DNA of 64,000 nucleotides, taken from an uncultured Coprobacillus sp. (GTDB lineage Bacteria > Bacillota_I > Bacilli_A > RFN20 > CAG-826). Shown here one piece after another: positions 38,140-55,276 of the stretch. Each line of letters begins with the position of its first letter. Position 1 is the stretch's first letter. Below the pieces are notes generated by a model that was not told the origin of the DNA, ran no database searches, and saw nothing but the letters and a program-made list of their open reading frames with translations. The stretch is taken from the NCBI GenBank assembly GCA_964583155.1, contig CAZOUY010000005.1:7698-71697 (forward strand), written 5' to 3'. A program made the position numbers and the translations under genes.

Positions 38140-38682
38140 ATGAATATATGGCACGATGTGTCGAAAAGCCGTATTCAACCGGAAGATTTTGTGGCGTGCA
38201 TTGAAATACCATCCGGATGCAAGAATAAGTATGAGCTCGATAAACAAACCGGGACCCTTATTTTAGATCGCATTCTTTATACATCCACCCACTATCCGCA
38301 AAATTATGGCTTTATTCCTCATACATATGCAGGAGATTATGATCCACTCGATGTTCTTGTTATCTGTTCAGAGCCGATCGTACCGTTGGCTTTAGTTCAA
38401 TGCTATCCTATTGGTATCGTCAATATGGTCGATTCAGGTTTACCGGATGAGAAGATTATTGCGGTTTGCGCTCACGATCCGATATATGGTAATTATCGTG
38501 AAATATGCGAATTACCGGCACATATCTTTGATGAAATATGTCATTTTTTCCGGGTTTATAAAAACCTAGAGAAAAAGGATACGGATGTTCTTTCGATTGA
38601 AGGACGTCAAAAGGCGATTGAGGTTATTAAACAAGCGATCGCTAATTATGAAAAAGAATTTGGAAATAAAGGAGAAAAATAA
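38140..38682 (+). CDS. ppa: Inorganic pyrophosphatase (family I)
   Basis: [13 protein letters not shown]...DGDPLDVLV-type motifs (here [12 protein letters not shown]). Confidence 0.85.
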
Positions 38683-39317
38683 TGAAATTATTTATTGATA
38701 CGGCTAATATCGAGCATATTAGAATCGCTTCCAAATGGGGAGTCATTTCAGGTGCGACCACCAATCCATCTTTGATTGCTAAAGAAGGAAGAAAGGTAGA
38801 GGAGGTCGTCAAAGAAATCGTCACCTTAATCGATGGACCTATTTCGGCGGAGGTCCAAGAGGCTAGCGCCGAAGAAATGGTGGCCGAAGCCCGGAAATTG
38901 GTCAAAATCCATCCTAATATCGTCATCAAAATTCCGATGACTATGGAGGGGATTGCGGCGACCTCGATTTTGCATAAGGAAGGAATCCATACGAATGTGA
39001 CCTTAGTTTTCTCAGTTTCGCAGGCCTTAATGGCGTGTGAAGCGGGTGCGACTTATATTTCACCATTCATGGGCCGCGTGGATGATGCGGGACATTCCGG
39101 TGCGGAATTGATCGCTAAAATCATGGCGATGATTAGCAATTATGGCTATGAAACCCAAGTCATCGCCGCTAGCATCCGCAATTTAGCTCATGTTGAGCAA
39201 GCCGCTTTAGCCGGTGCGGATATCGCAACCATTCCGTTTGCCGTCTTAGAAAAGATGGTGAAGGATCCTTTAACCGATAACGGATTAGCGATTTTTAGAG
39301 AAGCAGCCAAAAAATAA
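38682..39317 (+). CDS. Fructose-6-phosphate aldolase/transaldolase family protein (TalC/Fsa type)
   Basis: [14 protein letters not shown]...GATTNPSL and a TalC-like length of 211 aa. Confidence 0.8.
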
Positions 39318-39426: not shown

Positions 39427-39843
39427 ATGCGAGTTCGTTATCGGGATGCGGACGTTTCTTTATTAGGACGATTAATGCGTTCAGAAGCACAAGGAGAAGG
39501 CAATTTTGGTATGAAATTAGTCGGCAATGTTGTTATTAATCGCGTTGTTGCGAATTGTTCTCCTTTTAAAAAGCTTTCCACAATTGAAAGTGTTGTCATG
39601 CAAAAAAATGCCTTTGAGGGCATTAATACGCCATTATTTCAGGCAGGAGCGACCACCTTAGAAAGAAGATTAGCGCTCGATTGTATTAAATTTTGGCGAG
39701 CCGATCCGGCCTATGCGGCGTTATATTTTCAAGCGCCCGGGAAAGGGAAGCCTTGTAAAACACGATTTTGGGGAAAATTAGAGGGGAAATTTAAAAACCA
39801 TTGCTTTTATTCCTCGGATGGCGATGAAGATTGTGGACTATAG
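39427..39843 (+). CDS. Cell wall hydrolase, SleB/CwlJ-like (Hydrolase_2 domain only)
   Basis: LMRSEAQGEGNFGMKLVGNVVINRV matches the Hydrolase_2 core. About 139 aa. The preferred start is the ATG at 39427. Confidence 0.55.
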   Translation: MRVRYRDADVSLLGRLMRSEAQGEGNFGMKLVGNVVINRVVANCSPFKKLSTIESVVMQKNAFEGINTPLFQAGATTLERRLALDCIKFWRADPAYAALYFQAPGKGKPCKTRFWGKLEGKFKNHCFYSSDGDEDCGL

Positions 39844-40659
39844 TAAATGAAGCGGATCATCTAAATGCTCCGCTTTTTCTTTAGCGATATGAAGATAGAC
39901 ATCATCATGATATAGTTCATTCATCATAAGAGCCCAATAGTACCATAAAAGATCATTAAACTGTAAAAAGGCCATCACTTTTTGATAGTGCTCCGCGGTT
40001 AAAGGTGTTAAAAAATATTGTTTCAAGAAATATTTAATCAAATCCGGATCTTTGAGGTTATTCTCACTGATAAAGGAAGCTAAATCAAAATAAGGATCAT
40101 CATAGCCACCGTATTCCAAATCGATGATTTCGACATGATCGGAAAAAAGGAGGATATTGCCACTTACGAGATCATGATGACAGGGAACCTGTTGGTCGGA
40201 TAAGAAAAGCAAATAATTATCAATAATGGCTTTTTCCTTCGGATGCGGATTTATTTTCGCTCTTTTTCGATATTGATAGCATCTATCTAAACCATCGAAC
40301 TTTTGAAGACCACTGATTGCGGTTTGATGCATTTTTCTTAAAAGGTGAGCGATCTCTTGATAAGTCGTTAGCGATGCTTGTTGAGCGTCAAATTCATGAA
40401 AACCCTGAATATAGGGGGTGATTTTCAAATTTCTTTGAGCGTCGAAGGCTAATAAAGGAATCGAAGGATGGATTAACGCTCCAAGAGCGGTCTCCATCAA
40501 TTTTTCGTTAGCGGGAGAAAGATCGTAGCGAAGAGGCTTCTTAGGAACGCGCAAAAGATAACGATCATTGATAAGATAATGGTCGTTGCTCAATCCGAGT
40601 TTCATTTGTCGAACACTATTGATAGGCTCTAAGGTGAAAAAGGCGAGATATTCTTCCAT
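39838..40659 (-). CDS. Phosphotransferase family protein (choline/ethanolamine kinase/APH-like)
   Basis: Catalytic loop HHDLVSGNILL and the IIDLEYGGYDDPYFDLASF motif. Confidence 0.65.
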   Translation of the reverse strand: MEEYLAFFTLEPINSVRQMKLGLSNDHYLINDRYLLRVPKKPLRYDLSPANEKLMETALGALIHPSIPLLAFDAQRNLKITPYIQGFHEFDAQQASLTTYQEIAHLLRKMHQTAISGLQKFDGLDRCYQYRKRAKINPHPKEKAIIDNYLLFLSDQQVPCHHDLVSGNILLFSDHVEIIDLEYGGYDDPYFDLASFISENNLKDPDLIKYFLKQYFLTPLTAEHYQKVMAFLQFNDLLWYYWALMMNELYHDDVYLHIAKEKAEHLDDPLHLL

Positions 40660-40715: not shown

Positions 40716-41237
40716 ATGCTCCATATTATTTTATATCAACCGGAAATTCCTGCCAATACGGGAAATATTATGCGAACCTGTAAAGCCATAAATGCCACGC
40801 TTCACATCATTGGTCCTTTGACATTTTCTTTAGAAGAAAAATCGTTGAAAAGGGCCGGAATGGATTATATTGAAGGCTTGACAATGAAAATATATGAATC
40901 ATACGTTGATTTTTGTCAAAAGAATCCGAATGCGGATATCTATTATATCAGTCGCTATGGCGAAAAGACATATTCACAAGCGGATTTCACGCATATTGCC
41001 CATACCTATTATTTGATGTTTGGACGAGAATCGATGGGGATTCCGCATGATATTCTTAATGATCATCTCGATCGATGCCTAAGGATTCCGATGGTAGCGA
41101 GCGCGAGAAGCCTCAATCTTTCGAACTGTGTGGCGATTGTCGCCTATGAAGTCATGAGACAGCAGGGCTTTTATGGATTGAGCACCAAGGAAGCGATTAA
41201 GGGGGAAGATTTTTTATTGAAGGAGAAAGGTAAATAA
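40716..41237 (+). CDS. trmL: tRNA (cytidine34/U34-2'-O)-methyltransferase, SpoU family
   Basis: LHIILYQPEIPANTGNIMRTC and a SPOUT fold length of 173 aa. Confidence 0.75.
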   Translation: MLHIILYQPEIPANTGNIMRTCKAINATLHIIGPLTFSLEEKSLKRAGMDYIEGLTMKIYESYVDFCQKNPNADIYYISRYGEKTYSQADFTHIAHTYYLMFGRESMGIPHDILNDHLDRCLRIPMVASARSLNLSNCVAIVAYEVMRQQGFYGLSTKEAIKGEDFLLKEKGK

Positions 41238-42608
41238 CGAGTCATCGATCTTATTTAAATGCAGCGTTTGATAATGATTGAGCTGTACAAGACCGGATTT
41301 GGATGTTTTTTTCACCTGATTAATCGGAGTATAAATGACATCGCCATCGGATAGATGCGCTAGCTTAAGGGCTAACGAGGCGGCATAAATAAGGACTTCC
41401 TTATTGGGATTGCTATCAAAAATAACGACATGAGCGCCTTGATGATTTTGAACGTGCAGGAAGATATCGTTTTTGCGCGCTAAATGAAAGGTCAAGGTAT
41501 CATTTTGGAGATTGTTTTTGCCATAGCCGATTTTTACGCCCTGAAAGTAGCAAAAATATGGTTGAATCGCTGGATGATGGGGGAACTTTTTCTTAGAGGC
41601 CTTCTTTAAATAACCATTATTTACTAGTTCTTCTTCCATCTCCTGCAAATCACGTTCGGAGGCTCCTTCCCATTGCGATTCCAAAATACTAAAATAATCG
41701 ATTTCCGCTTTGGTCTCCGCCATTTGTCTTGTTAAATGCTCTTCGGCATTCCGAGCTTTTTGGTATTTCTTATAATATAGAAGCGCATTGTCTTTTGCGG
41801 ATTTATCCGCATCAAGAGGAATGACATAATCAAAAATGCGGAATTCGTTTTGCTCAGGATGCACCTCATCAAGATAGGTGATGAGCAAATCTCCGTATTC
41901 CTTCCACATGTCCTTTTTTTGCGACATGAGCAATTCTTGATTTTGGCGTTGCCATTTTTTTAACGCTGATTTTTTATGCGATTTGATTAACGATAAAATC
42001 GCATTAAACTTATCCTTTTTGCGCTTGTCTTCGATGCTTTTTCGGTAATCATCAAAAAGGGATAGATAATCAAACGCGATGGGGTCGATATTTTCCTTCC
42101 ATTGCACGTTTTTTTCAGGACAAGTATAGGTTAATCCCTTTAACAAAGGGCGTTTGCTTTCCAAATCACCATGACGATAGACAAGTAAAATCCTTCGATC
42201 CTTATCCAGCAAAAGCATATTAGCATTACCGGTAATCAATTCAATCACCAAGTAGCGGCGGTTTGTTTCATAGACATCATTTGTACATTGTAAGGTCCAA
42301 ACCACGATCCGATCATTATTCCATAATTCAAGATTTTCGACATAGGCATGATCAAGCTCTTTCCGCAATGAAAGAAAAAATGGTGACGCGAGAGTGCTGC
42401 TTGGATCCTTAAATTCAGTAAGACTTATAAAAGGATGAGAAGATTGTAAGGAAATAATCACCCGTTGGGTCTTATTTTTCGAAAGAGAAAAGAAGAAATC
42501 AGTTTTCGAATATTCAACGAATTTACCAAGATAAGAGCCAAGAGCTTTTTCTTTTATTTCTTGAACAATATAGAGCAGATTACCAGCATTTAAAGACATT
42601 TTCATCAC
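41214..42608 (-). CDS. rqcH: NFACT family protein (RqcH/FbpA-like ribosome quality control)
   Basis: An N-terminal NFACT-N-like pattern. The C-terminal NFACT-R/DUF814 motif is VHVQNHQGAHVVIF...TPINQVKK. At 464 aa it is shorter than canonical RqcH. Confidence 0.5.
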   Translation of the reverse strand: MMKMSLNAGNLLYIVQEIKEKALGSYLGKFVEYSKTDFFFSLSKNKTQRVIISLQSSHPFISLTEFKDPSSTLASPFFLSLRKELDHAYVENLELWNNDRIVVWTLQCTNDVYETNRRYLVIELITGNANMLLLDKDRRILLVYRHGDLESKRPLLKGLTYTCPEKNVQWKENIDPIAFDYLSLFDDYRKSIEDKRKKDKFNAILSLIKSHKKSALKKWQRQNQELLMSQKKDMWKEYGDLLITYLDEVHPEQNEFRIFDYVIPLDADKSAKDNALLYYKKYQKARNAEEHLTRQMAETKAEIDYFSILESQWEGASERDLQEMEEELVNNGYLKKASKKKFPHHPAIQPYFCYFQGVKIGYGKNNLQNDTLTFHLARKNDIFLHVQNHQGAHVVIFDSNPNKEVLIYAASLALKLAHLSDGDVIYTPINQVKKTSKSGLVQLNHYQTLHLNKIDDSLFTFLLQ

Positions 42609-42734
42609 CTTTTTTAATATATCATAGATGCTTCAAAAAAGAAAAAGAATAGGTATATAATGAACATAAGCGTAAATTTATTAAGATTGGTATTAAATAG
42701 ATAATATAATATGAAAATATTTAAAAAAGTGTTA

Positions 42735-42763
42735 TTGTTATTTTAGATAGTCGCCATAATAAT
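42735..42763 (+). promoter_or_regulatory. Weak candidate sigma-A promoter upstream of the SLR-TIR-NACHT gene
   Basis: TTGTTA, a 17-nt spacer and AATAAT. RBS AGAGG lies 9 nt before the ATG at 42787. Confidence 0.25.
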
Positions 42764-42786
42764 TTTCATTAATAGAGGTATAAACA

Positions 42787-45700
42787 ATGAAGTATGAAAA
42801 CGCACTTTTAAAGGCAACAGCTGAAACCATCGATGAGTTTTATGAATTAATTGCGCAAGGATATAATATTTTTAATATCACCTTAAATATTGATGACGAG
42901 GAAAAGAAAAAGCTATTTGAAAGGGCATCGATGAGAAAACACCCTAATGATGATTACATTTTAGGATATTGCTACTATAATGGTGTTGGAATAGAACGGA
43001 ATTATAGTCAAGCATTTGAGCATTTTAAAATATCCGCTAATGATGGCGATTTAAGAGCACAAAATAATCTTGGCTTGTGTTATTATGATGGCCAGGGCGT
43101 TCCACAAAGCTATGAAGAAGCAGTAAAATGGTATAGATTAGCGGCAGATCAAGAAAATGCAAATGCACAATATAATCTCGGCTGTTGCTATTATAATGGT
43201 TTAGGTGTCTCACAAAGCTATGAAGAAGCAGTAAAATGGTATAGATTAGCGACAAATCAAGGACTTGCAAGAGCACAATTAAATCTTGGCAATTGCTATT
43301 ATAATGGTCAAGGTGTTCCACAGAGTTATGAAGAAGCAGTCAAGTGGTGTAGATTAGCGGCAGATCAAGGAAATGCAAGAGCACAATATACTCTCGGTGT
43401 TTGCTATTATAATGACCGAGGCGTTCCACAAAGCTATGAAGAAGCAGTAAAGTGGTATAGATTAGCGGCAGATCAAGGATATGCTGATGCACAATATAAT
43501 CTTGGCAATTGCTATTATAAAGGCCAAGGTGTTCCACAAAGCTATGAAGAAGCCGTAAAATGGTATAGATTAGCGGCAAATCAAGGAGATGCTGATGCAC
43601 AAAATAATCTCGGCCTTTGTTATGATAATGGCCAAGGTGTTTCGCAAAGCTATGAAGAAGCCGTGAAGTGGTATAGATTAGCCGCAAATCAAGGAAATGC
43701 AAGAGCTCAATATAATCTTGGCAATTGCTATTATAAAGGCCAAGGTGTTTCACAAAGCTATGAAGAAGCCATGAAGTGGCATAGATTAGCGGCAGATCAA
43801 GGATATGCTGATGCACAATATAATCTTGGCAATTGCTATTATAAAGGCCAAGGTGTTCCACAAAGCTATGAAGAAGCCGTAAAATGGTATAGATTAGCGG
43901 CAGATCAAGGGCTTGTAGAAGCTCAATATAATCTAGCTTTTTGCTATAAGTATGGTCAAGGTGTTCCACAAAGCTATGAAGAAGCCGTGAAGTGGTATAG
44001 ATTAGCCGCAAATCAAGGAGATGCTGATGCACAAAATAATCTCGGCCTTTGTTATGATAATGGCCAAGGTGTTTCGCAAAGCTATGAAGAAGCCGTGAAG
44101 TGGTATAGATTAGCCGCAAATCAAGGAAATGCAAGAGCTCAATATAATCTTGGCAATTGCTATTATAAAGGCCAAGGTGTTTCACAAAGCTATGAAGAAG
44201 CCATGAAGTGGTATAGATTAGCGGCAGATCAAGGAAATGCAAGAGCTCAATATAATCTTGGTGTTTGCTATGATAATGGCCAAGGCGTTCCACAAAGCTA
44301 TGAAGAAGCCGTGAAGTGGTATAGATTAGCCGCAAATCAAGGAAATGCAAGAGCTCAATATATCCTAGCTCTTTGTCATGCTAATGACAAAGATATGGCA
44401 CAAAGTTATGAAGAAGCAGCAAAGTGGTGGACATTAGCCGCAAATCAAGGAAATGCAAGAGCACAATATAATCTCGGTGTTTACTATGCTAAAGGCCAAG
44501 GTGTTCCACAAGATTATAAAGAAGCCGTGAAGTGGTATAGATTAGCGGCAGATCAAGGATATGCTGATGCACAATATAATCTCGGAGTTTGCTATGCTAA
44601 AGGCCAAGGTGTCTTACAAGATTATGAAGAAGCATCCAAGTGGTGGACATTAGCTGCAAATCAAGGACATGCAGATGCTCAATATGATCTCGGTGTTTGC
44701 TATGCTAAAGGCCTAGAATTGCCACAGAGTTATGAAGAAGCATCCAAATGGTGGAAATTAGCTGCAAATCAAGGGCTTGCAGATGCTCAATATGATCTCG
44801 GTTTTTGCTATGCTAAAGGCCAAGGTGTCTCACAAGATTATGAAGAAGCATCCAAGTGGTGGAAATTAGCGGCGAATCAAGGAAATGCAGAAGCTCAATA
44901 TAATCTAGCTCTTTGTTATAATAAAGGTCAAGGTGTTCCACAAAGTTATGAAGAAACAGTAAAGTGGTATAGATTATCTGCAGAGCAAGGACATGCAGGC
45001 GCACAAAATAATCTCGGTGTTTGCTATTATAATGGCCTAGGCTTGCCACAGAGTTATGAAGAAGCCGTGAAGTGGTGGACATTATCGGCAAATCATGGAC
45101 TTCCAATTGCTCAATATAATCTCGACGTTTGCTATGAGAATGGTCAAGGCATTCCACAAATTTATGAGGAAACTATTCAATTAGAGAGGAATATAGGAAA
45201 AAAAGAGTCTCAATATTATGATGAACGAGCAAAATTGTTGAAATCAGCGGCAGATCAAGGATATGCTGATGCACAATATAATCTCGGTGTTTGCTATGAG
45301 AATGGCAAAGGAGTTCCACAAAGTTATGAAGAAGCCGTGAAATGGTATAGATTAGCGGCAGATCAAGGACATGCAGGTGCTCAATACAATCTCGGCGTTT
45401 GCTATGAAAATGGTTTCGGCATTCCACAAAGTGATGATGAAGCCGTTAAATTGTATAAAAAAGCGGCAGATCAAGGCGATAAAGAAGCACAACTTGCGTT
45501 AGATAAAATATTAACAGAATTAGAAATAGAATATAAATTTAACAATGTAGGAAAAAGTTATGATGTATTCGTGTCATGGAATCATAACGATAAGGATTTT
45601 AAAAATCGATTGGTTGATGGAATAGAAAATAAGAATAATATTAATAATGATGGAGAAGCATTATATACTCATTATCGTGCTTGGGAAAGTGATCGAGATG

Positions 45701-47607
45701 CAAGTGGGGTCATAGATTTATGTATTGAAAGAGCTATTAAGTCTTCTAAGTTTTTTTTGATTATTCTTTCAAAATATTCTCTAAAAAGCAAATGGGTAAA
45801 AAAGGAACTCGAAATAGCGTTACAATGTGTGAAAAACGGGGAATTGACTGAAGAAAATTTGATCATTGTCTATTTGGACAGTGAAGATTTTAACGTCAGT
45901 GAAGAAATTGCAAAAATAAGCGATGAAAATGATCCATTCAAAAAGCTAATTACTTTTGCTTTAGCAGGTAAGTATTCCGATAAAAATGATGATCGAATAG
46001 TGACTAATGTCTGTGCCCAAATCCAACAAGGAATGGCAAAAACAGCGATACGTAACTATATCTATCAACATACGAAAGAAAATGAATTTAAATACAACGT
46101 TCAAAGTCAGTATAGTGATAATAATATGTCAGGGAATCCCGTCGATGCTTTCATGACATATGAAGATGGATATATTGATCGGAATATTTATGATGAAAAA
46201 GATAATGGCTTTAGCATTGATGAAGTGATCAATAGTAAAGAAAACCTCATCATAGTGGGTGAAGGAGGAATCGGTAAAAGTCTTTATCTATCCTATTTAA
46301 TGTATAAGCATTTGGCCATTAATAAGTTTTATGTCAGAATCAACTTAATTAACTATGTCGGTTTACTTAAAAGTATTAATTCCATTGATCAATTGTTAAA
46401 TACAGAACTAGAAACCTATCTTAATGGTAAAGTTGGTGTTGCTAAAGATAATTATCTTCCAACAATTAGAGAAAATGGGGCATCAATAACGATTATTATG
46501 GATGGCTTAGAGGAAATAGATGATGAAAATAATGAAAAGTTATGTAAACTTATTAAAGCATATCGTGCGGCAAATACATGGGATCGATTTATTTTTACAT
46601 CGCGAAATGAGAATAGTAGGCCAGTAAATGGAATAAAAGAAATTTTTATTAGCAAAGATATCCGTGTATTACATCTAGAAAGATTAACATACGAAGAGCA
46701 AAAAAGTTTATTTGATAATATTGCCAAAAGAATTATAAAGGATCCAAAGCCAGGTGAGATAGGACCTAATCGAGAAAGACTTAAAATAGATTTTTTTGAA
46801 GAATTAAAAAAGATAAGTGATGAAATAACAGGTAATCCATTCTTGTTATCAAATCTTATTTTCATTTACCTTTTTAGAAGTGGCGAGGATAAAAATAAAG
46901 ACCTACCAAAAACGAGATATGAAATTATTAAACAAATCGTCGATATCTTTATTCATAAGCTTGAAGATAATCGAGGAGTATTATCATTATTCAAATATAA
47001 AGATTACTTAACACCACAAAGAATGGAGAAGCTACTAGGAAATATAGCTTTACGTAAATTACAGGGCGCACGTCAAAACTTCAAGGAATTGATTTATGAA
47101 TACTTAAGTAAAGAAGAGAGAAGCGCTAAAGAACATAATATAGAAAAAGTAGCTAAAGAAATATATGAATATCTGGCGCGACGAGCGATCATTTATGAAA
47201 ATAAGATTTCTCACGATCTTTTCACATCCTTTTTTGCTACTTACTATATTTATTTAAATGTCTATCAGCTAAAAAATAAGCATGATGTTTATTATATAGG
47301 CTTTCAAAAAGAGGGCAAGGAATATTTTAAATATCGGTTAGAGGAGTTTAAGAAACATATTGAACGATGGGCTGATGTTCCGATTGAAATTATTATGCAG
47401 CTTGATTATGAGATAAGAAATTTAAATGATCAGGAGATGGATGATAGCAATATGAGTAAAACAGTTTTCAAAGAAACATTAGAACTAGCAAAAGATGGTT
47501 TACCGGATTTTGTAAAGATGATGCAGGAATATCTTGATAGACAGGGAACATTCTACTTTGAAACATTTATTAGGCAATTATTATCACTCATGGAAGAGAA
47601 GGTATAA
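42787..47607 (+). CDS. 1606-aa Sel1-repeat/TIR/NACHT (STAND NTPase) protein, a candidate NLR-like antiviral defense protein
   Basis: About 23 tandem 36-aa Sel1-like repeats (consensus AQYNLGNCYYKGQGVPQSYEEAVKWYRLAADQG) span roughly aa 55-910.
The TIR domain starts at YDVFVSW, with IERAIKSSKFFLIILSKYSLKSKWVKKELEIAL matching the plant and bacterial TIR alphaC-to-betaD region including the catalytic Glu.
The NACHT domain has Walker A GEGGIGKS, Walker B IIMDGLEEID, FIFTSR and GNPFLLS motifs. Confidence 0.8.
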   Translation: MKYENALLKATAETIDEFYELIAQGYNIFNITLNIDDEEKKKLFERASMRKHPNDDYILGYCYYNGVGIERNYSQAFEHFKISANDGDLRAQNNLGLCYYDGQGVPQSYEEAVKWYRLAADQENANAQYNLGCCYYNGLGVSQSYEEAVKWYRLATNQGLARAQLNLGNCYYNGQGVPQSYEEAVKWCRLAADQGNARAQYTLGVCYYNDRGVPQSYEEAVKWYRLAADQGYADAQYNLGNCYYKGQGVPQSYEEAVKWYRLAANQGDADAQNNLGLCYDNGQGVSQSYEEAVKWYRLAANQGNARAQYNLGNCYYKGQGVSQSYEEAMKWHRLAADQGYADAQYNLGNCYYKGQGVPQSYEEAVKWYRLAADQGLVEAQYNLAFCYKYGQGVPQSYEEAVKWYRLAANQGDADAQNNLGLCYDNGQGVSQSYEEAVKWYRLAANQGNARAQYNLGNCYYKGQGVSQSYEEAMKWYRLAADQGNARAQYNLGVCYDNGQGVPQSYEEAVKWYRLAANQGNARAQYILALCHANDKDMAQSYEEAAKWWTLAANQGNARAQYNLGVYYAKGQGVPQDYKEAVKWYRLAADQGYADAQYNLGVCYAKGQGVLQDYEEASKWWTLAANQGHADAQYDLGVCYAKGLELPQSYEEASKWWKLAANQGLADAQYDLGFCYAKGQGVSQDYEEASKWWKLAANQGNAEAQYNLALCYNKGQGVPQSYEETVKWYRLSAEQGHAGAQNNLGVCYYNGLGLPQSYEEAVKWWTLSANHGLPIAQYNLDVCYENGQGIPQIYEETIQLERNIGKKESQYYDERAKLLKSAADQGYADAQYNLGVCYENGKGVPQSYEEAVKWYRLAADQGHAGAQYNLGVCYENGFGIPQSDDEAVKLYKKAADQGDKEAQLALDKILTELEIEYKFNNVGKSYDVFVSWNHNDKDFKNRLVDGIENKNNINNDGEALYTHYRAWESDRDASGVIDLCIERAIKSSKFFLIILSKYSLKSKWVKKELEIALQCVKNGELTEENLIIVYLDSEDFNVSEEIAKISDENDPFKKLITFALAGKYSDKNDDRIVTNVCAQIQQGMAKTAIRNYIYQHTKENEFKYNVQSQYSDNNMSGNPVDAFMTYEDGYIDRNIYDEKDNGFSIDEVINSKENLIIVGEGGIGKSLYLSYLMYKHLAINKFYVRINLINYVGLLKSINSIDQLLNTELETYLNGKVGVAKDNYLPTIRENGASITIIMDGLEEIDDENNEKLCKLIKAYRAANTWDRFIFTSRNENSRPVNGIKEIFISKDIRVLHLERLTYEEQKSLFDNIAKRIIKDPKPGEIGPNRERLKIDFFEELKKISDEITGNPFLLSNLIFIYLFRSGEDKNKDLPKTRYEIIKQIVDIFIHKLEDNRGVLSLFKYKDYLTPQRMEKLLGNIALRKLQGARQNFKELIYEYLSKEERSAKEHNIEKVAKEIYEYLARRAIIYENKISHDLFTSFFATYYIYLNVYQLKNKHDVYYIGFQKEGKEYFKYRLEEFKKHIERWADVPIEIIMQLDYEIRNLNDQEMDDSNMSKTVFKETLELAKDGLPDFVKMMQEYLDRQGTFYFETFIRQLLSLMEEKV
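42949..45516 (+). repeat. Tandem 108-bp coding repeats (Sel1-like units), with near-identical copies and duplicated higher-order blocks of about 420 bp
   Basis: A stretch such as caaagctatgaagaagccgtgaagtggtatagattagccgcaaatcaagg recurs many times. The segment 43560-43800 is nearly identical to 43980-44220. Confidence 0.85.
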
Positions 47608-47674
47608 TTTTATAGCGGATAGTTGCGCAAGAAATGGCGATAATCGCGGAATTGCAAATATTTAAAATTTCGCG

Positions 47675-47703
47675 TTGCTTTTTTACCTGTTATTAAATAT
47701 AAT
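47675..47703 (+). promoter_or_regulatory. Sigma-A type promoter upstream of gmk
   Basis: TTGCTT, a 17-nt spacer and TATAAT, about 70 nt upstream of the gmk ATG. Confidence 0.45.
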
Positions 47704-47771
47704 ATGAATATTCGAATATGGCACATTTATTAATTTATTAATAAAAAAGGCATGATTGTAGGTGAATTACA

Positions 47772-48356
47772 ATGCAAAAAGGGCTTCTTATTATCCTAAG
47801 CGGACCGAGTGGTGTTGGCAAAGGCACAATTAGACGGAAAGTGATGGAAGATTTGTCTCTTAATTTAGTTTATTCAATTTCGATGACTACTCGTAAACCC
47901 CGAAATCAAGAGGTAGAGGGCGAGGATTATTTTTTCGTGTCCGATGAAGAATTTGATCGAAATGTGGAAAACGGTAATTTACTGGAATGGGCGTCCTTTG
48001 TCGGCAATCGCTATGGGACCCCGAAGGATTATGTCGAGAGGTTGCGCGCTGAAGGAAAGAATGTCTTTTTGGAAATTGAGGTCGATGGGGCGCGCCAGGT
48101 AATGCAAAAGTGCCAAGGATCCGATGTCTTTTCAATCTTCCTGATTCCTCCATCTTTAGAAGCGCTAGAGCAAAGAATTCGCGGTCGGAGAAGTGAAAGT
48201 GAAGAGATTATTCGCGAAAGATTGGAGAAAGCCAAACGGGAAATGGGATTGAAATTCCACTATCATTATGTCGTTTTGAATGACGATGTTGATCGAGCGG
48301 CCAATGAGATTAAGGGCATTATTCGTTCGAAGATAAACGCAGTTATTCATAAATAA
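47772..48356 (+). CDS. gmk: Guanylate kinase
   Basis: P-loop ILSGPSGVGKGT and the guanylate kinase motifs. Confidence 0.85.
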   Translation: MQKGLLIILSGPSGVGKGTIRRKVMEDLSLNLVYSISMTTRKPRNQEVEGEDYFFVSDEEFDRNVENGNLLEWASFVGNRYGTPKDYVERLRAEGKNVFLEIEVDGARQVMQKCQGSDVFSIFLIPPSLEALEQRIRGRRSESEEIIRERLEKAKREMGLKFHYHYVVLNDDVDRAANEIKGIIRSKINAVIHK

Positions 48357-48381
48357 ATAAGGGACGTAAGGAGGAAAGAGC

Positions 48382-50580
48382 ATGCGAGTTTTAGAGGTAT
48401 ATATTGAACATGCTACTATCGATTTAGATCGTCCCTTTTCTTATGTCTATTTAGGTGATAAAAGGGTTGAAAAGGGCTTTCGTGTGATCGTCCCCTTTAA
48501 CAAACAAAAAAGGATAATCGGTTTCGTAAGCAAGGTGATCGAAACTACGAAAAGCAAGGAAGAATACGAACAAGAAAATGGCTTTGCTTTAAAAGAAATA
48601 ATCGATGTTTTAGATCATGAAAAGCTTCTTGATGAGGATCTATGGGAATTAGCCCAAAGGATGGCTAAATACTATTTCACCCCGCTTATTAAAGTTTTGC
48701 AAACGATGCTTCCCCCTTCGATGAAGCCCCAATCAAGCGCTTTAAAAGCTCCGAAAATCGCTTATGAATATTATGTGGAACTGCTTGATAGCAATGAAGA
48801 GGGCTTAACCACCAAGCAAAAAGAGTGGTTACGCTTGATAGCTAATGAGAAAAGAATATTAAAAAAAGATTTTCGGTCACCGACAATTCTTGACAAACTG
48901 TGTGCCTTAAAAAGGGTTAAGATTGTCAAGGAGGAGAAAAGGCGACTTATTCTTCCCAAGTTCGATCCTTTAACGCCTCATGAATTAACGATAGATCAAA
49001 AACGGGTGATCCAAGAATTCTTGTCTTCTTCCCAAGACGTCTCTTTATTAGAGGGAGTAACTGGATCAGGAAAAACAGAGGTTTATGCCCGTTTGATCGA
49101 TCATTATTTATCAAAAAATCAGAATGTTCTTTTTTTAGTACCAGAAATCGCTTTAACTCCGATGATGGTTGAGTATTTTTCTATGCGCTTTTCGACGAAA
49201 ACCGCTATTTTGCATTCGGAGTTAACACCCGCACAGAAATACGATGAATATCGAAAAATCGCTCATGGTGAGGCTCATTTGGTGATTGGAGCAAGGAGCG
49301 CCATTTTTGCCCCCTTGCACAATATTGGGTTAATAATTTTGGATGAAGAGCATGTTGAATCCTATAAACAGGAGCAAAGCCCGAGCTACCATGCCTTAGA
49401 AATCGCGAAATGGCGGGGTCAAATGGAAGGGGCGAGAATTCTTTTAGGAAGCGCTACTCCGAGTTTAGAATCGCGAGCCCGTGCCTTAAAGGGAGTCTAT
49501 CAATATCTTCGGTTGCCACGTCGTATCCATAATCAAGAATTGCCGACAACTGAGATTATCGATTTATTGAAGCCTCATCAAGTTGATCGGGATTCGGTCC
49601 TTTTTTCCTTATCCTTGCGTCAGGCTATCACCGATCGCTTGAATAAGCATGAGCAGATCGTTTTGCTTTTAAATCGGAGAGGCTATTCTCCTTATGTCAG
49701 CTGCCGTCGTTGCGGTCATGTTTTTGTGTGCCCCGAATGTCAAATCACGCTTTCGTATCATCGTCAGGATAATATGCTGAAATGCCATCATTGCGACCAT
49801 GTTGAAGAGATGCCTAAGGCTTGCCCGAATTGTGGTAGCGTCTATCTTAGCAAGCAGGGCTTTGGCACCGAGAAAATCGAAGAGGAAGTCAAGCGCTTAT
49901 TCCCTAAGGCCCGTACTCTACGCTTAGATTCGGATGTTTCGCGTATCAAGGTCAATAGTGAGAAGATACTTGCTAAATTCCGTAATCATGAAGCCGATAT
50001 TCTCATCGGCACGCAAATGATCGCGAAAGGTCATGATTTTCCTGATGTAACTTTAGTGGGCATTGTTTTAGCGGACATCGGTTTAACGATGCCATCTTTT
50101 CGTTCGTCCGAAAGAACCTTCCAATTGATTACCCAGGGGGTGGGACGCGCCGGGCGCGGGCAAAAAAGAGGTCACGCCATCATTCAAACCTATATGCCTC
50201 AGCACTATGCGGTGTATTTAGCGGCCAAGCAGGATTATACCTCCTTTTTTAAGGCGGAGATGAAAACGCGGAAATTGCAGCAATATCCGCCATATACCTT
50301 TTTAATTTCGCTTTGGATTTCCTCCACCAACGAGGAAGGCTTAGTAGTTGTGGCTAATGAGATGAAGGATAAATTGGAAAAGGAATTGGCTAAAGAGGCG
50401 ACTTTGATCGGCCCCTCCACGCCATATATCGCCAAAAAGGGCGCTTATTATTATCGGCATATCTTGATCAAGTATCAACGCCCCGAAAAAATCGAGATGG
50501 CCTTGGAGGAATTAAAGAGGCTATTCGAGGGTAAAAGCTCCTATCATTTACGGATTGATCGCGATCCTTATGACTTTTAA
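48382..50580 (+). CDS. priA: Primosomal protein N' (replication restart helicase PriA)
   Basis: Helicase motif I GVTGSGKTEVY, DEEH, the zinc-binding Cys cluster CRRCGH...CPEC...CHHCDH...CPNCG, and a length of 732 aa. Confidence 0.85.
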   Translation: MRVLEVYIEHATIDLDRPFSYVYLGDKRVEKGFRVIVPFNKQKRIIGFVSKVIETTKSKEEYEQENGFALKEIIDVLDHEKLLDEDLWELAQRMAKYYFTPLIKVLQTMLPPSMKPQSSALKAPKIAYEYYVELLDSNEEGLTTKQKEWLRLIANEKRILKKDFRSPTILDKLCALKRVKIVKEEKRRLILPKFDPLTPHELTIDQKRVIQEFLSSSQDVSLLEGVTGSGKTEVYARLIDHYLSKNQNVLFLVPEIALTPMMVEYFSMRFSTKTAILHSELTPAQKYDEYRKIAHGEAHLVIGARSAIFAPLHNIGLIILDEEHVESYKQEQSPSYHALEIAKWRGQMEGARILLGSATPSLESRARALKGVYQYLRLPRRIHNQELPTTEIIDLLKPHQVDRDSVLFSLSLRQAITDRLNKHEQIVLLLNRRGYSPYVSCRRCGHVFVCPECQITLSYHRQDNMLKCHHCDHVEEMPKACPNCGSVYLSKQGFGTEKIEEEVKRLFPKARTLRLDSDVSRIKVNSEKILAKFRNHEADILIGTQMIAKGHDFPDVTLVGIVLADIGLTMPSFRSSERTFQLITQGVGRAGRGQKRGHAIIQTYMPQHYAVYLAAKQDYTSFFKAEMKTRKLQQYPPYTFLISLWISSTNEEGLVVVANEMKDKLEKELAKEATLIGPSTPYIAKKGAYYYRHILIKYQRPEKIEMALEELKRLFEGKSSYHLRIDRDPYDF

Positions 50581-50639
50581 CTTTCTTTTTTGTTGATAAT
50601 TTGCTATGATATCGCTTGGATAAGAAGGAGAATATCGAT

Positions 50640-51146
50640 ATGATTACCATTACTTTTATTGGATCTGATCGCTATGTTATCGGACAATATTCAAAAGAAG
50701 TGACTGCTAAATTAGCGAATTTATGGGAGGTTGAGGAGGATGAAATTCTCTTCTTGGCTCCGGAAATTTATGTTTATCATCAAGGCGTCGAGCAAACATC
50801 GTATCAGGTATTGGTCGAAGTTAATGCTCCGGAGGCCTGCCGAATGGTCGAAAAAGAAGTAGCCGATTATATTTTAAAGACCGCGGAAGCCTTTGTGGTT
50901 CATCTCGCCGTGCGGTTTAAATATTTTAAAGAGAAGACCTATGCTCATATCCGGGATGATTATCCGCGTTATATCACCGAAGAGAACGAAGTGCTCATTG
51001 AAAAGGAAGAGTATGACGAGGAAACGGAAATATATGAAGGAAATATTTTCGAAAATTTCGAAGAGCGTTTAAAAAAGCGCGCTGAGCAAGAAGAAAGCGA
51101 AAGAGAGCATCATGATGATTGTTGTCATGATCATCATCGTCATTAA
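50640..51146 (+). CDS. Hypothetical protein with a His/Cys-rich C-terminal tail (EHHDDCCHDHHRH)
   Basis: AAGGAG RBS 9 nt before the ATG at 50640. It occupies the priA-rsmB gap where def and fmt usually sit. Confidence 0.45.
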   Translation: MITITFIGSDRYVIGQYSKEVTAKLANLWEVEEDEILFLAPEIYVYHQGVEQTSYQVLVEVNAPEACRMVEKEVADYILKTAEAFVVHLAVRFKYFKEKTYAHIRDDYPRYITEENEVLIEKEEYDEETEIYEGNIFENFEERLKKRAEQEESEREHHDDCCHDHHRH

Positions 51147-51163
51147 GAAGCAATTCTTCATCA

Positions 51164-51193
51164 ATCAATAGTTTTATCGCTATTGATTTTTTT
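51164..51193 (+). terminator. Rho-independent terminator
   Basis: ATCAATAG/CTATTGAT stem followed by TTTTTTT. Confidence 0.45.
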
Positions 51194-51302
51194 ATTTCTC
51201 GGTGATGGAAACGTGATTTAAACCGCTATTTAATAAATTATTTATTAAATAATTTTATTATGACGGACAATTTGCTAAAATAGAATGAAAGAAGGTGACA
51301 AA

Positions 51303-53610: not shown

Positions 53611-54410
53611 AACATCATGGAGATTTTTGTTATTTAACTGATATCGGAAAAAAACGATCCGTCAATGAAGATTGTTCGATGATCATCAACAACGCTCATG
53701 GCGATACTTTGATGATGGTCTGCGATGGCATGGGAGGGCATCAAAAGGGTGATGTCGCCGCCCGATTAACCATCGATCTATTGATGGATGCTTTTAATAA
53801 AAAGGAACGCTTTGTAACGGTACGAGGCGCTAGAAAATGGTTAGAAAGAACTATTCGATCGATTAACGAGGCGGTCTATAATCGCGAAAAGGATGTTTCG
53901 TATGTTGAGCATATGGGAACAACCTTAGTCGCTTGTCTTATTCTCACCAAATCGATTGTTGTGGCCAATATTGGCGATTCCCGAGCGTATGTTTTGCGTA
54001 CGAAAGAAAATGAAGAGGTCTATGATTTTGAGCAGGTGACAAGCGATGATACCATCGCCGAATATTTGGTGAATATGGGCCGAATCAAAAAGGAAGATCG
54101 CGAGCATTTTACCTCGCGGCATATTTTAACCAATGCGATCGGCTTATTTCCTTCGGTGCGCTTGGAAATTAAGGTTTTGCCCTTTACGGAATTGAAATCT
54201 TCGCAGGACAATAAAAAGGATTGTTATACGATTTCAAGCATTTTATTATGCTCGGATGGTCTTTTTTCGATGCTGAATAAAGAAGAAATATTATCGTCAC
54301 TGACGATGGATGAAGAAATTGAAAATAAGGCCGAAAGCTTAATTACGATGGCCAATAATAACGGAGGCGATGATAATATCGCGATCGCTTTATGGGAGAC
54401 ATCTTTATAA
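53607..54410 (+). CDS. stp: PP2C-family Ser/Thr protein phosphatase
   Basis: MVCDGMGGHQKGDVAA and a C-terminal GGDDNI motif. Confidence 0.8.
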   Translation: MKHHGDFCYLTDIGKKRSVNEDCSMIINNAHGDTLMMVCDGMGGHQKGDVAARLTIDLLMDAFNKKERFVTVRGARKWLERTIRSINEAVYNREKDVSYVEHMGTTLVACLILTKSIVVANIGDSRAYVLRTKENEEVYDFEQVTSDDTIAEYLVNMGRIKKEDREHFTSRHILTNAIGLFPSVRLEIKVLPFTELKSSQDNKKDCYTISSILLCSDGLFSMLNKEEILSSLTMDEEIENKAESLITMANNNGGDDNIAIALWETSL

Positions 54411-54411
54411 T

Positions 54412-55275: not shown

Positions 55276-55276
55276 G

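What the first reader, a model, noticed from the sequence alone, without database searches (positions are those of the whole stretch)
42609..47771. The SLR-TIR-NACHT gene is a single-gene insertion between conserved housekeeping genes
The gene sits alone between a minus-strand rqcH-like gene and the gmk-priA cluster. In Firmicutes these are core genes, and gmk is normally surrounded by housekeeping neighbours.

Its 3' half and the flanking intergenic regions are markedly AT-rich. It has its own weak promoter-like element and RBS, and no mobility genes or partner genes sit nearby.

This context fits a horizontally acquired defense-island cargo.
Basis: partly seen in the sequence, partly recalled or inferred. 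Interest (0 to 1): 0.55.

Follow-up and report, generated by a model that had tools for sequence, protein, structure and literature searches.

The report
Imported lone bacterial NLR-like immune gene
A single 4.8-kb gene for an NLR-like immune protein (Sel1 repeats, then a TIR domain, then a NACHT ATPase) was imported between two back-to-back housekeeping promoters of an uncultured gut-type Bacilli genome; this is an ordinary kind of gene transfer, but the protein has an unusual domain order.

Summary
ORF 42787-47607 (+), 1606 aa, has about 23 Sel1 repeats, a TIR domain and a NACHT-type STAND ATPase. It sits alone between a minus-strand rqcH-like gene and gmk-priA.

The insertion reading is strongly supported:
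- In five related lineages (PriA 70, 68, 67, 61 and 53% identical), rqcH and gmk are adjacent, with a 101-138 bp spacer.
- The closest relative (77%) has a different single gene, a GT2 glycosyltransferase, at the same spot.
- The conserved gmk promoter and the rqcH extended -10 survive on either side. The cargo therefore lies between two divergent promoters, at about 42.64-47.66 kb.
- GC3 of the gene is 0.237 against 0.408 +/- 0.041 for 52 host genes.
- GC3 is equally low in both halves. The 40% GC of the Sel1 half comes from amino-acid composition.

I found no mobility gene, partner gene, convincing flanking repeat or defence island.

The protein belongs to a rare family, 43 clusters at E<=1e-30 among 1.84 billion representatives. 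The order Sel1-TIR-NACHT is fixed across the family, and the catalytic motifs are invariant.

It most likely acts as a stand-alone abortive-infection sensor that depletes NAD+. That function is inferred, not shown.

The parts
41214..42599 (-). rqcH-like (NFACT) housekeeping gene, left boundary of the site. The probable start is ATG 42599; the mechanical ORF call runs to GTG 42608.
   Evidence: Pfam NFACT_N 1.4e-50 and NFACT-R_1. It is 62/53/49/49/36/32% identical to the syntenic gene in L016/L019/L023/L025/L024/L002. The first 60 codons have GC3 0.23, against about 0.40 for the rest.
42605..42629 (-). rqcH RBS (complement of TCACC, 42605-42609) and an extended -10-like element (TGATATATT on the minus strand). 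These are retained from the ancestral spacer.
   Evidence: Read from the sequence. The same TGnTA(T/G)xxT element stands before rqcH in L019, L016 and L025. Its promoter function is inferred.
42636..47660 (+). Approximate extent of the inserted segment, about 5.0 kb. It holds one gene with its own upstream region and about 50 bp of 3' tail. The boundaries are good only to within tens of bases.
   Evidence: The segment is bounded by the retained rqcH promoter and the conserved gmk promoter block. The empty-site spacers in relatives are 101-138 bp.
42688..42715 (+). Left copy of an imperfect direct repeat (TGGTATTAAATAGATAATATAATATGAA). It contains the -10 (TATAAT, 42705-42710) of the best promoter candidate for the cargo gene, and it resembles the gmk -10 region.
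   Evidence: The 13-mer AATATAATATGAA occurs at 42703 and 47696 (3 of 1000 shuffles reach 13). The local alignment has p of about 0.03. The promoter-like site 42681-42710 matches 10 of 12 positions. This evidence is weak.
42787..47607 (+). SLR-TIR-NACHT gene, 1606 aa, intact ORF. RBS AGAGGT at 42774-42779.
   Evidence: GC3 is 0.237, z = -4.2 against the host genes.
42928..45501 (+). Sel1-like repeat array. It has 21 in-phase 36-aa units (aa 48-803), a break of about 20 aa (aa 800-820), then 2-3 more units up to about aa 905.
   Evidence: Pfam Sel1 gives 22 stretches. TRF finds period 108, 19.6 copies, 82% matches and no indels. The register was printed. Units 6=9 and 7=11 are 100% identical in DNA, and units 8 and 12 are 99% identical.
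45559..45885 (+). TIR domain (aa 925-1033), with the family-invariant Glu1007 in the motif SKWVKKELE.
   Evidence: TIR_2 scores 40.6 bits (cutoff 28), TIR 30.2 and ThsB_TIR 28.7. D926, W966 and E1007 are among the TIR-region residues invariant in 20 family members.
46204..47604 (+). NACHT-type STAND NTPase module plus C-terminal helical domains (aa ~1140-1606). Walker A is GEGGIGKS (1158-1165), Walker B is IIMDGLEE (1236-1243), sensor-1 is R1273, and the NPFLLSNLIF motif is at 1350-1359. There is no C-terminal repeat domain.
   Evidence: Invariant motifs. The AlphaFold2 model has pLDDT 78 and pTM 0.67. The top PDB matches are NLRC4 (4.9e-9), NOD2 (1.3e-8), RPP1 and EfAvs5. Homologues pass Pfam NACHT.
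47661..47710 (+). Ancestral gmk promoter block (-35 TTGCTT 47675-47680, 17-nt spacer, -10 TATAAT 47698-47703). It contains the right copy of the repeat (47688-47708).
   Evidence: The block aligns with the region upstream of gmk in L016 (score 52) and in the empty site of L019 (score 31); none of 300 shuffles reaches either score.
47772..50580 (+). gmk (47772-48356) and priA (48382-50580), right boundary of the site. They head the conserved def-rsmB-rlmN-PP2C-kinase-rsgA-rpe cluster.
   Evidence: Pfam. Synteny in all relatives. An independent Logan contig, L001, is 100% identical to 45258-58356.

Best explanation
What it is (shown). An ancestral 100-140 bp spacer separated the divergent housekeeping genes rqcH (-) and gmk (+). 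In this lineage the spacer received a segment of about 5 kb carrying one gene. The segment lies between the two promoters and leaves both intact. The gene has a third-position GC content of 0.24, against 0.41 for the resident genes. That value matches lower-GC members of the same clade.

How it got there (inferred). The donor was a lower-GC bacterium, possibly a relative. No integrase, transposase, tRNA or clear att-like repeat is present. The most likely route is therefore recombination through the conserved flanking genes, after uptake of DNA from a relative that already carried the gene at this spot. The spot is a small hotspot, because the nearest relative holds a different single gene there.

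The protein (domains shown). It is a bacterial NLR-like STAND protein with a non-canonical domain order: an array of about 23 Sel1 repeats at the N-terminus, then a TIR domain, then a NACHT NTPase module that ends the protein.

How it works (inferred by analogy with bNACHT/Avs proteins and TIR NLRs). In the resting state the protein is monomeric and auto-inhibited. Binding of a phage protein, or of a perturbed host protein, releases the NACHT module. The Sel1 superhelix is the likeliest binding surface; the C-terminal helical domain is the alternative. The NACHT module then binds ATP and oligomerises. Oligomerisation brings TIR domains together to form active NADase sites built around Glu1007. 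Because no partner effector gene is present, the probable output is NAD+ depletion and abortive infection, rather than a signalling nucleotide.
For: Insertion. rqcH and gmk are adjacent in L019/20/21 (138 bp), L025 (137 bp), L023 (129 bp), L024 (109 bp) and L002 (101 bp). L016/17 has a GT2 gene instead. The gmk promoter block is conserved on the right side of the cargo. No remnants of either cargo are found in the other genomes.

Foreign origin. GC3 is 0.237 against 0.408 +/- 0.041 and is uniform along the gene; only 0.7% of host 60-codon blocks are that low; p = 1.6e-16. The gene's codon choice fits the codon models of the low-GC relatives (L023 -0.907, L016 -0.920) better than the host model (-0.987). 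Host control genes show the opposite pattern. Family homologues sit in unrelated contexts, after an aminotransferase or after dnaJ.

Assembly. The right junction is reproduced in an independent contig.

Protein. Domains are shown. The residues invariant across 20 homologues include the TIR Glu, Walker A and B, the sensor-1 Arg and the NPxLL motif. The fold is closest to NLRC4, NOD2, RPP1 and EfAvs5. The Sel1-TIR-NACHT order is kept in all 19 close and 6 sampled distant homologues.

Sel1 array as a fast-evolving part. Across the family, the part N-terminal to the TIR match varies from about 50 to about 1250 aa, while the TIR-NACHT part stays at about 700 aa. The array contains 100%-identical duplicated units. 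Variability is concentrated at a few positions of the 36-aa unit.

Lone gene. No partner ORF is present.
Against: No function has been tested for any member of this family. PADLOC and NCBIfam have no full-length model for it; only TIR-level or weak hits appear.

This sequence itself does not reach Pfam's NACHT threshold.

The closest relative lacking the gene is only 77% identical in PriA. The timing of the gain is therefore loose, and no genome of the same species without the gene was available.

The donor is unknown. The best homologue is 41-43% identical.

The left junction and the number of Sel1 units rest on one assembly. An independent short-read contig breaks at 45258, at the end of the 21-unit array.

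Recombination through the flanks is supported only by two indirect points: the absence of mobility signatures, and the low GC3 (0.23) of the first 60 codons of rqcH. A block-wise identity comparison of rqcH showed no discordant segment.

Confidence: 0.75

Rival explanations
1. The gene is ancestral at this site and was lost repeatedly in the relatives. On this view there was differential loss rather than gain.
For: The two closest lineages, the window and L016, both have an occupied site. Their common ancestor may therefore already have carried a gene there.
Against: At least four or five independent clean losses would be needed, each restoring a spacer of 101-138 bp. No remnants are found. 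The gene's GC3 is 4 sd below that of the host genes, which a long-resident gene would not keep. The occupant in L016 is an unrelated GT2 gene.
Confidence: 0.05
2. The locus is an assembly chimera. On this view an unrelated Sel1-repeat gene was joined to a TIR-NACHT gene, or to rqcH, through the repeats.
For: An independent short-read contig ends at 45258, at the end of the 21-unit array. Units 6/9 and 7/11 are 100% identical. Exact-sequence look-ups did not find the full protein or RqcH.
Against: The right junction, from the gene's 3' half into gmk, is reproduced at 100% identity over 13 kb. GC3 is the same in both halves (0.231 and 0.238), and both differ from the host. All 25 homologues checked have Sel1 repeats N-terminal to TIR-NACHT. 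Synteny requires rqcH to lie just upstream of gmk. Only the repeat number is really uncertain.
Confidence: 0.05
3. The protein is not a phage-defence sensor. Instead it would be a host-interaction or other regulatory factor of a host-associated bacterium, since Sel1 and TIR proteins are known as effectors that interfere with eukaryotic signalling.
For: Established knowledge: Sel1-repeat proteins and TIR proteins of pathogens act on host cells. The samples that hold this clade look host-associated. No defence genes flank the gene.
Against: No signal peptide or hydrophobic N-terminus is present. An intact NACHT switch with invariant ATPase motifs is fused to a TIR domain with the catalytic Glu. 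That is the architecture of intracellular immune STAND proteins (Kibby et al.). The family is sparse and patchy, with foreign codon usage, which is typical of defence genes.
Confidence: 0.1
4. The cargo arrived by a site-specific or transposition-like event that duplicated about 21-28 nt of the gmk promoter. The direct repeat would be a target-site or att scar, and homologous recombination would not be involved.
For: An imperfect direct repeat (42688-42715 and 47688-47708) brackets the gene. It contains an exact 13-mer, a length reached in only 3 of 1000 shuffles.
Against: The local alignment is only marginal (p of about 0.03) in 19-28% GC promoter DNA. The similarity may simply reflect two -10 regions. 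No recombinase is nearby. The GT2 cargo in L016 shows no flank repeat (p = 0.65).
Confidence: 0.1

Closest known systems
Bacterial NACHT / NLR-related antiphage proteins (bNACHT; Kibby et al., bioRxiv 10.1101/2022.07.19.500537), in particular the TIR_2+NACHT+TPR architectures
   Same: It has a NACHT-type NTPase (Walker A GxxGxGKS, Walker B DGLxE, TSR sensor-1). Its fold is closest to NLRC4 and NOD2. A TIR effector lies immediately N-terminal to the NACHT module. It is a single-gene system with a patchy distribution.
   Different: The repeat array is N-terminal to the effector, not C-terminal to the NACHT module. The protein ends after the NACHT helical domains. The repeats are Sel1 rather than TPR, LRR or HEAT. 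No repeat+TIR+NACHT or Sel1 entry was found in the held text of their Table S1, which may be cut. Canonical N-terminal-TIR relatives are only 24-29% identical. No member of this family has been tested.
Avs/AVAST STAND defence proteins, e.g. Avs5 (SIR2-nSTAND3 with C-terminal TPR or Sel1-like repeats; PMC12931631)
   Same: It is a STAND NTPase joined to an NAD+-consuming effector and to alpha-helical repeats that can be Sel1-like. EfAvs5 is among the structural matches. There is a weak nSTAND3 Pfam hit.
   Different: The effector is TIR, not SIR2. The nSTAND3 hit is below threshold (23.9 bits against 27.2). The repeats are at the opposite end of the protein.
Plant TIR-NLRs (e.g. RPP1, PDB 7crc/7dfv)
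   Same: It has a TIR domain with an SxWxxxEL-type catalytic Glu motif, followed by a STAND NTPase. RPP1 is a top structural match. The oligomerisation-driven TIR NADase of these proteins is the mechanistic model used here.
   Different: The plant proteins have an NB-ARC rather than a NACHT NTPase, and C-terminal LRR and C-JID sensor domains. There is no orthology.
Chromosomal hotspots for integration of accessory and defence genes between core genes (general concept, from my own knowledge of the literature)
   Same: The cargo at one site between conserved core genes is variable: SLR-TIR-NACHT here, GT2 in the nearest relative, and nothing in five other lineages.
   Different: The spot is very small, holding one gene per occupant. 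There are no mobile-element genes, and nothing suggests a multi-system island.

Membership tests
NACHT-clade STAND NTPase (bacterial NLR-related) | NACHT NTPase module: P-loop, Walker B of the hhhhDGhDE type, sensor-1 Arg, and the NBD-HD-WHD fold | tested here: met
   GEGGIGKS at 1158-1165, IIMDGLEE at 1236-1243, R1273 and the NPFLLSNLIF motif are invariant in 20 sequences. The best PDB fold matches are NLRC4 and NOD2. Homologues pass PF05729 (P0154 28.4, P0162 41.1, P0170 34.9 bits, cutoff 26.7). This sequence alone gives only sub-threshold nSTAND3 and NPHP3_N hits.
NACHT-clade STAND NTPase (bacterial NLR-related) | Canonical tripartite order: N-terminal effector, central NTPase, C-terminal sensor or repeats | tested here: not met
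   The order is Sel1 array (aa 48-905), TIR (925-1033), NACHT (~1140-1606). The family match runs to the C-terminal end of the protein in most full-length hits.
NACHT-clade STAND NTPase (bacterial NLR-related) | Confers protection against phage | not testable with these tools
Enzymatic TIR (NADase) effector domains | TIR domain above the curated threshold, with a conserved catalytic Glu | tested here: met
   TIR_2 scores 40.6 bits (cutoff 28). E1007, in SKWVKKELE, is invariant in 20 sequences. Equating it with the catalytic Glu of plant and bacterial TIRs rests on established knowledge of the SxWCxxEL motif, not on a structural superposition done here.
Enzymatic TIR (NADase) effector domains | NAD+ cleavage activity | not testable with these tools
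   This needs a biochemical assay.
Thoeris (ThsA + ThsB) | A TIR protein (ThsB) encoded next to a ThsA effector (SIR2, TM or Macro with SLOG) | tested here: not met
   There are ThsB_TIR and PADLOC ThsB hits over the TIR domain only. No ThsA-like gene is present: the flanks contain no partner ORF and the neighbours are housekeeping genes.
Avs5 / nSTAND3 STAND proteins | nSTAND3 NTPase above threshold with an N-terminal SIR2 effector | tested here: not met
   nSTAND3 scores 23.9 bits, below the cutoff of 27.2. No SIR2 domain is present.
Horizontally acquired insertion (genomic islet) | Absent from the orthologous site of related genomes | tested here: met
   There are five empty lineages and one with a different cargo.
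Horizontally acquired insertion (genomic islet) | Composition or codon usage deviating from the host genome | tested here: met
   GC3 is 0.237 against 0.408 +/- 0.041, z = -4.2, p = 1.6e-16. The gene fits the codon models of low-GC relatives better than the host model.
Horizontally acquired insertion (genomic islet) | Mobility signatures: integrase or transposase, a tRNA target, flanking direct repeats | tested here: not met
   The window has no tRNA. No mobility gene is among the neighbours. The flank repeat is marginal. No relatives of the gene were found on phage, viral-contig or plasmid records.
Defence island | Clustering with other defence systems | tested here: not met
   The immediate neighbours are SpoU, APH, RqcH, Gmk, PriA, Def and so on. 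The JetABC genes 11 kb downstream are syntenic in all relatives and are not part of the insertion.

The most novel reading that the evidence does not exclude
SLR-TIR-NACHT proteins are a distinct, permuted class of bacterial NLR. In this class an expandable N-terminal Sel1 superhelix, rather than a C-terminal repeat domain, is the ligand sensor that gates a TIR NADase through a C-terminal NACHT switch. Separately, the rqcH|gmk promoter gap of this Bacilli clade is a hotspot free of mobile elements, where single-gene cassettes are exchanged by recombination through the flanking core genes.
Probability: 0.3. Interest if true: 0.55.

Novelty: new variant of a known kind. Interest (0 to 1): 0.36.

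Why it matters
The insertion is a clean, well-bounded example of a lone immune gene dropped between two divergent housekeeping promoters with no mobile-element machinery. A different cargo sits at the same spot in the sister lineage. That is useful for understanding how reduced-genome, uncultured Bacilli acquire defence genes, but it is not surprising.

The protein is the more interesting part. It belongs to a rare, untested family: 43 clusters at E<=1e-30 among 1.84 billion representatives. The family keeps a fixed Sel1-TIR-NACHT order, which reverses the usual placement of the repeats in STAND immune receptors. If the N-terminal Sel1 array is the sensor, it would show that NLR-type switches can be gated from the effector side. 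It would also offer a simple, highly regular repeat scaffold for studying or engineering ligand recognition.

There is a practical point for annotation too. NCBIfam's MerG equivalog model passes its cutoff on this protein only because the scores of many Sel1 repeats add up.

Tried and rejected
- Exact-sequence look-ups of the full protein and of RqcH found nothing. Only Gmk and PriA found the source organism, in a contig broken at 45258 at the end of the 21-unit Sel1 array.
- The genome-contig scan with PriA returned one useful relative, L002 at 53%; the other hits were distant phyla. Closer relatives came from the protein search followed by contig look-ups.
- The family was not found on viral contigs, phage records or plasmids, where the only hit was one distant Nostoc NACHT protein. 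The metagenome scan gave three distant loci that I did not analyse further.
- No intrinsic terminator follows the gene. A hairpin plus T-run at 47645-47684 folds no better than shuffled sequence (z = -0.89).
- The flank direct repeat is suggestive but not significant enough to call a target-site duplication. No flank repeat surrounds the GT2 cargo in L016.
- Remnants of GT2 in the window, or of the SLR gene in the relatives: none.
- I tested for a discordant, donor-derived segment at the 5' end of rqcH by block-wise identity. There was no signal beyond the low GC3 of the first 60 codons.
- AT-richness of the flanks as evidence for transfer: rejected, because the values are ordinary for intergenic DNA here.
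- PADLOC and NCBIfam have no full-length family model.
- Literature searches found no description of a Sel1-TIR-NACHT protein.
Full report
**1. What is at the coordinates**

The region 42609-47771 holds one long ORF, 42787..47607 (+), 1606 aa. A 178-bp upstream spacer and a 164-bp downstream spacer flank it.

- Upstream, on the minus strand, is an NFACT/RqcH-like gene (NFACT_N 1.4e-50).
- Downstream are gmk (2.5e-47) and priA.
- After priA come def, rsmB, rlmN, a PP2C phosphatase, a Ser/Thr kinase, rsgA and rpe.

The protein has 22 Pfam Sel1 stretches. Its TIR domain scores 40.6 bits on TIR_2 (cutoff 28; aa 927-1033). The P-loop NTPase region gives only sub-threshold hits in this sequence (nSTAND3 23.9 bits against 27.2; NPHP3_N). 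No ORF of 20 aa or more in the two spacers looks like a partner gene. The window has no tRNA.

**2. Is it an insertion? Synteny**

The source organism is an unnamed, uncultured member of the Bacilli. PriA relatives are labelled 'Bacilli', 'Firmicutes' or 'Erysipelotrichaceae bacterium' MAGs, and cluster look-ups gave no name.

I ranked relatives by PriA identity and fetched their contigs.

| Relative (locus) | PriA identity | State of the rqcH-gmk site |
|---|---|---|
| L016/L017 (GCA_964546565.1) | 77% | rqcH(-), then a 443-aa GT2 glycosyltransferase (+), then gmk |
| L019/L020/L021 | 70% | adjacent, 138-bp spacer |
| L025 | 68% | adjacent, 137 bp |
| L023 (GCA_964504595.1) | 67% | adjacent, 129 bp |
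| L024 | 61% | adjacent, 109 bp |
| L002 (GTDB MAG) | 53% | adjacent, 101 bp |

The genes on both sides, from ATP synthase to the JetABC genes, are collinear in all of these. None of the relatives contains any trace of the SLR-TIR-NACHT gene, and the window contains no trace of the GT2 gene.

The site is therefore ancestrally empty. It has been filled at least once, and probably twice, with different single genes.

**3. Where exactly the cargo lies**

A block upstream of gmk, window 47661-47710, holds a -35 (TTGCTT, 47675-47680), a 17-nt spacer and a -10 (TATAAT, 47698-47703). It aligns with the sequence upstream of gmk in L016 (score 52) and with the empty spacer of L019 (score 31). None of 300 shuffles reaches either score.

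On the other side, the rqcH RBS and an extended -10-like element (42605-42629, minus strand) have counterparts in L019, L016 and L025. That these act as promoters is inferred.

The cargo therefore occupies roughly 42636-47660. It sits between two back-to-back promoters, and both survive.

**4. Composition and codon usage**

It is misleading as a sign of a mosaic gene, though.

| Measure | Whole gene | Sel1 part | TIR-NACHT part | 52 host genes |
|---|---|---|---|---|
| GC3 | 0.237 | 0.231 | 0.238 | 0.408 +/- 0.041 (minimum 0.314) |

The overall z-score is -4.2. The higher overall GC of the Sel1 part comes from first and second codon positions (GC1 0.57, GC2 0.39), which reflects Ala/Gly/Gln-rich repeats.

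On 60-codon blocks, only 0.7% of 287 host blocks are as low as the gene's mean. The Mann-Whitney test gives p = 1.6e-16.

Members of the same clade have lower GC3: L016 0.233, L023 0.172, L002 0.298 and L019 0.338. The gene's synonymous codon choice fits their codon models better than the host model (-0.907 and -0.920 against -0.987 log-likelihood per codon). Host control genes show the reverse. The donor was therefore a lower-GC organism, possibly a relative. That is an inference.

AT-richness of the flanking spacers is not informative. The values are 0.198 and 0.28, against 0.299 +/- 0.060 for the other intergenic regions.

**5. How it got there**

No integrase, transposase or tRNA is present. 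No relative of the gene was found on viral contigs, phage records or plasmids.

It finds an exact 13-mer, AATATAATATGAA, at 42703 and 47696. That length is reached in only 3 of 1000 shuffles. The 13-mer lies within an imperfect repeat of about 21-28 nt (42688-42715 and 47688-47708), whose local alignment score has p of about 0.03.

The right copy is the gmk -10 region. The left copy supplies the -10 of the best promoter candidate for the cargo gene (42681-42710). This could be a duplication scar, or simply two similar AT-rich -10 regions. I treat it as weak evidence. The GT2 cargo in L016 has no such repeat (p = 0.65).

One further hint: the first 60 codons of rqcH, next to the cargo, have GC3 0.23. 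That is the lowest first block among the 52 host genes, and only 2 of 287 blocks are that low. It is what one would expect if an imported tract extended into rqcH. A block-wise identity comparison with the relatives shows no discordant segment, however.

My preferred route is recombination through the conserved flanks, from a relative already carrying the gene at this spot. That rests mainly on the absence of alternatives.

**6. Assembly caveat**

An independent Logan contig (L001/L022, SRR6824195) is 100% identical to 45258-58356 and ends at 45258, at the end of the 21-unit Sel1 array. This confirms the right junction. It also shows that the repeats break short-read assemblies.

Units 6/9 and 7/11 of the array are 100% identical in DNA, and units 8/12 are 99% identical. 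The number of units therefore rests on one assembly.

A chimera is unlikely for three reasons. Both halves share the same foreign GC3. All homologues have the same domain order. Synteny demands rqcH at this position.

**7. The protein**

The Sel1 array is very regular. It has 21 in-phase 36-aa units (aa 48-803), a break of about 20 aa, then 2-3 more units. TRF reports a 108-nt period, 82% matches and no indels. Variation is concentrated at positions 2, 5, 7, 14, 17, 18, 23, 30 and 33 of the unit.

A search with the C-terminal 706 aa found only 19 clusters at 90% identity in 5.8 billion proteins. The best is 41% identical, and all have Sel1 plus TIR, with or without a NACHT hit. An exhaustive HMMER search of 1.84 billion representatives gave 141 hits: 73 at E<=1e-10 and 43 at E<=1e-30.

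In most of the full-length hits at E<=1e-20 (about 45 clusters) the match runs to the C-terminus and is preceded by 130-1250 aa. More distant hits (24-29% identity) have the TIR at residue ~10 and long C-terminal extensions, which is the canonical architecture. Six sampled distant members all have Sel1(N)-TIR-NACHT(C), and three of them pass Pfam NACHT.

Across 20 aligned members the following are invariant:
- the TIR motif residues, including D926, W966 and E1007 (in SKWVKKELE);
- Walker A, GEGGIGKS (1158-1165);
- Walker B, D1239 and E1243;
- the sensor-1 residue R1273;
- the NPxLLSNLIF motif.

An AlphaFold2 model of aa 901-1606 has pLDDT 78.2 and pTM 0.67. Its best PDB matches are NLRC4 (4.9e-9), NOD2 (1.3e-8), the plant TIR-NLR RPP1 and EfAvs5. 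At the sequence level only the Sel1 part matches solved structures strongly.

**8. How it most likely works**

Shown: the domain composition, the domain order, the conservation of catalytic residues, and the lone-gene status.

Inferred from established STAND and TIR biology (Kibby et al., bioRxiv 10.1101/2022.07.19.500537; bioRxiv 10.64898/2026.01.04.697583; PMC12931631):
- The protein is an auto-inhibited monomer at rest.
- Binding of a phage protein, or of a perturbed host protein, releases the NACHT module. The NACHT module then binds ATP and oligomerises.
- Clustered TIR domains form active NADase sites. With no partner effector gene, the output is NAD+ depletion and abortive infection.

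The Sel1 array is the best sensor candidate, for two reasons. First, it is the only repeat domain. Second, it is the hypervariable part of the family in length, and it shows recent unit duplications here. [quoted passage not shown]

**9. Comparison with what is known**

The canonical order in bacterial and eukaryotic STAND immune proteins is N-terminal effector, central NTPase, C-terminal sensor. Avs5 proteins can use Sel1-like repeats, but at the C-terminus.

Here the repeats precede the effector, and the NACHT module ends the protein. I found no Sel1 entry and no repeat+TIR+NACHT architecture in the held text of Kibby et al.'s Table S1, which may be truncated. No paper in the library describes such a protein.

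PADLOC gives only TIR-level hits (PDC-S66 4.7e-6, ThsB 3e-4). NCBIfam gives no full-length family. Its highest-scoring hit is a spurious 'MerG' equivalog match at 426.9 bits against a cutoff of 350, built from 11 Sel1 stretches.

I therefore file the protein as a NACHT-clade, TIR-bearing, NLR-related protein with a non-canonical, family-wide domain order. It is not a member of Thoeris, because no ThsA is present. It is not a member of Avs5, because it has no SIR2 domain and its nSTAND3 hit is below threshold.

**10. Verdict**

The 'defence island' wording is not supported. The gene is solitary among housekeeping genes, and the Wadjet-like JetABC genes 11 kb downstream are conserved in all relatives.

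The event itself is ordinary. The protein family is a rare, untested variant of a known kind. I set overall interest at 0.36.

Noticed in passing
window 58448-63868 (+): JetA (1.3e-98), a JetB-like DUF4194 protein and JetC (SbcC-type ATPase, 1127 aa) form a Wadjet-like set. It is present at the same syntenic position in every relative sampled (PriA identity 77% down to 61%). It therefore looks like core equipment of this clade, possibly a condensin-like role, rather than mobile defence cargo. JetD would lie beyond the end of the window.
   Followed up: partly
window 42787-47607 (protein level): The NCBIfam equivalog model NF033786 'phenylmercury resistance protein MerG' scores 426.9 bits, above its cutoff of 350, only because 11 Sel1 stretches add up. 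Automatic annotation could mislabel this protein and its relatives as MerG.
   Followed up: partly
L016 7939-9270 (+), GCA_964546565.1: The nearest relative carries a 443-aa membrane GT2 glycosyltransferase (EpsU/PgaC-like) in the same rqcH|gmk gap. Its GC3 is native-like (0.216 against 0.235 +/- 0.025). The gap is therefore a small variable spot with different single-gene occupants.
   Followed up: partly
window 42420-42599 (first 60 codons of rqcH, minus strand): GC3 is 0.23 in the first 60 codons, against about 0.40 in the rest of the gene. This is the lowest first block among the 52 host genes, and only 2 of 287 blocks are that low. It may be the end of an imported tract, but block-wise identity to the relatives shows nothing discordant.
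   Followed up: partly
window 43462-44439 (Sel1 units 6-9, 11 and 12): Units 6 and 9, and units 7 and 11, are 100% identical at the DNA level. Units 8 and 12 are 99% identical. This means either a very recent segmental duplication inside the array or an assembly artefact. The independent contig L001 breaks at 45258, at the end of the 21-unit array.
   Followed up: partly
window 43340-44350 (-): A 336-aa antisense ORF lies inside the Sel1 array, with several shorter ones nearby. Most likely they are a by-product of the periodic sequence, which lacks stop codons in that frame, and not genes.
   Followed up: no
L014 6692-11513; L011 8001-14427; L012 1633-7958: Family homologues sit in unrelated contexts. 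P0014 lies directly after hrcA-grpE-dnaK-dnaJ; this is curious, because bNACHT25 senses phage through DnaJ (PMC12169576), but it may be coincidence. P0001 and P0005 are each followed by the same three unknown genes (about 242, 396 and 99 aa). The P0014 gene has host-like GC3 (0.72 against 0.70). The P0005 gene is lower than its neighbours (0.417 against 0.539).
   Followed up: no
window 39838-40659 (-) and 38682-39317 (+): Small gene-content differences occur in the otherwise collinear region. The APH/choline-kinase-like gene is missing in L019/L020, and the transaldolase-like gene is missing in L023. Single-gene gain and loss seems common in this part of the chromosome.
   Followed up: no
window 47772-50580: gmk is followed directly by priA, without the rpoZ and coaBC genes that lie between them in Bacillus subtilis (that gene order is from my own knowledge). 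The same holds in all relatives. This is consistent with a reduced-genome Bacilli lineage.
   Followed up: no
window 14536-19882 (+): This is an AddB/AddA-like pair: a PD-(D/E)XK nuclease of 773 aa and a UvrD-type helicase of 1016 aa. It is preceded by a 961-aa protein with no Pfam hit (9172-12057) and by a 5'-nucleotidase/metallophosphatase protein.
   Followed up: no
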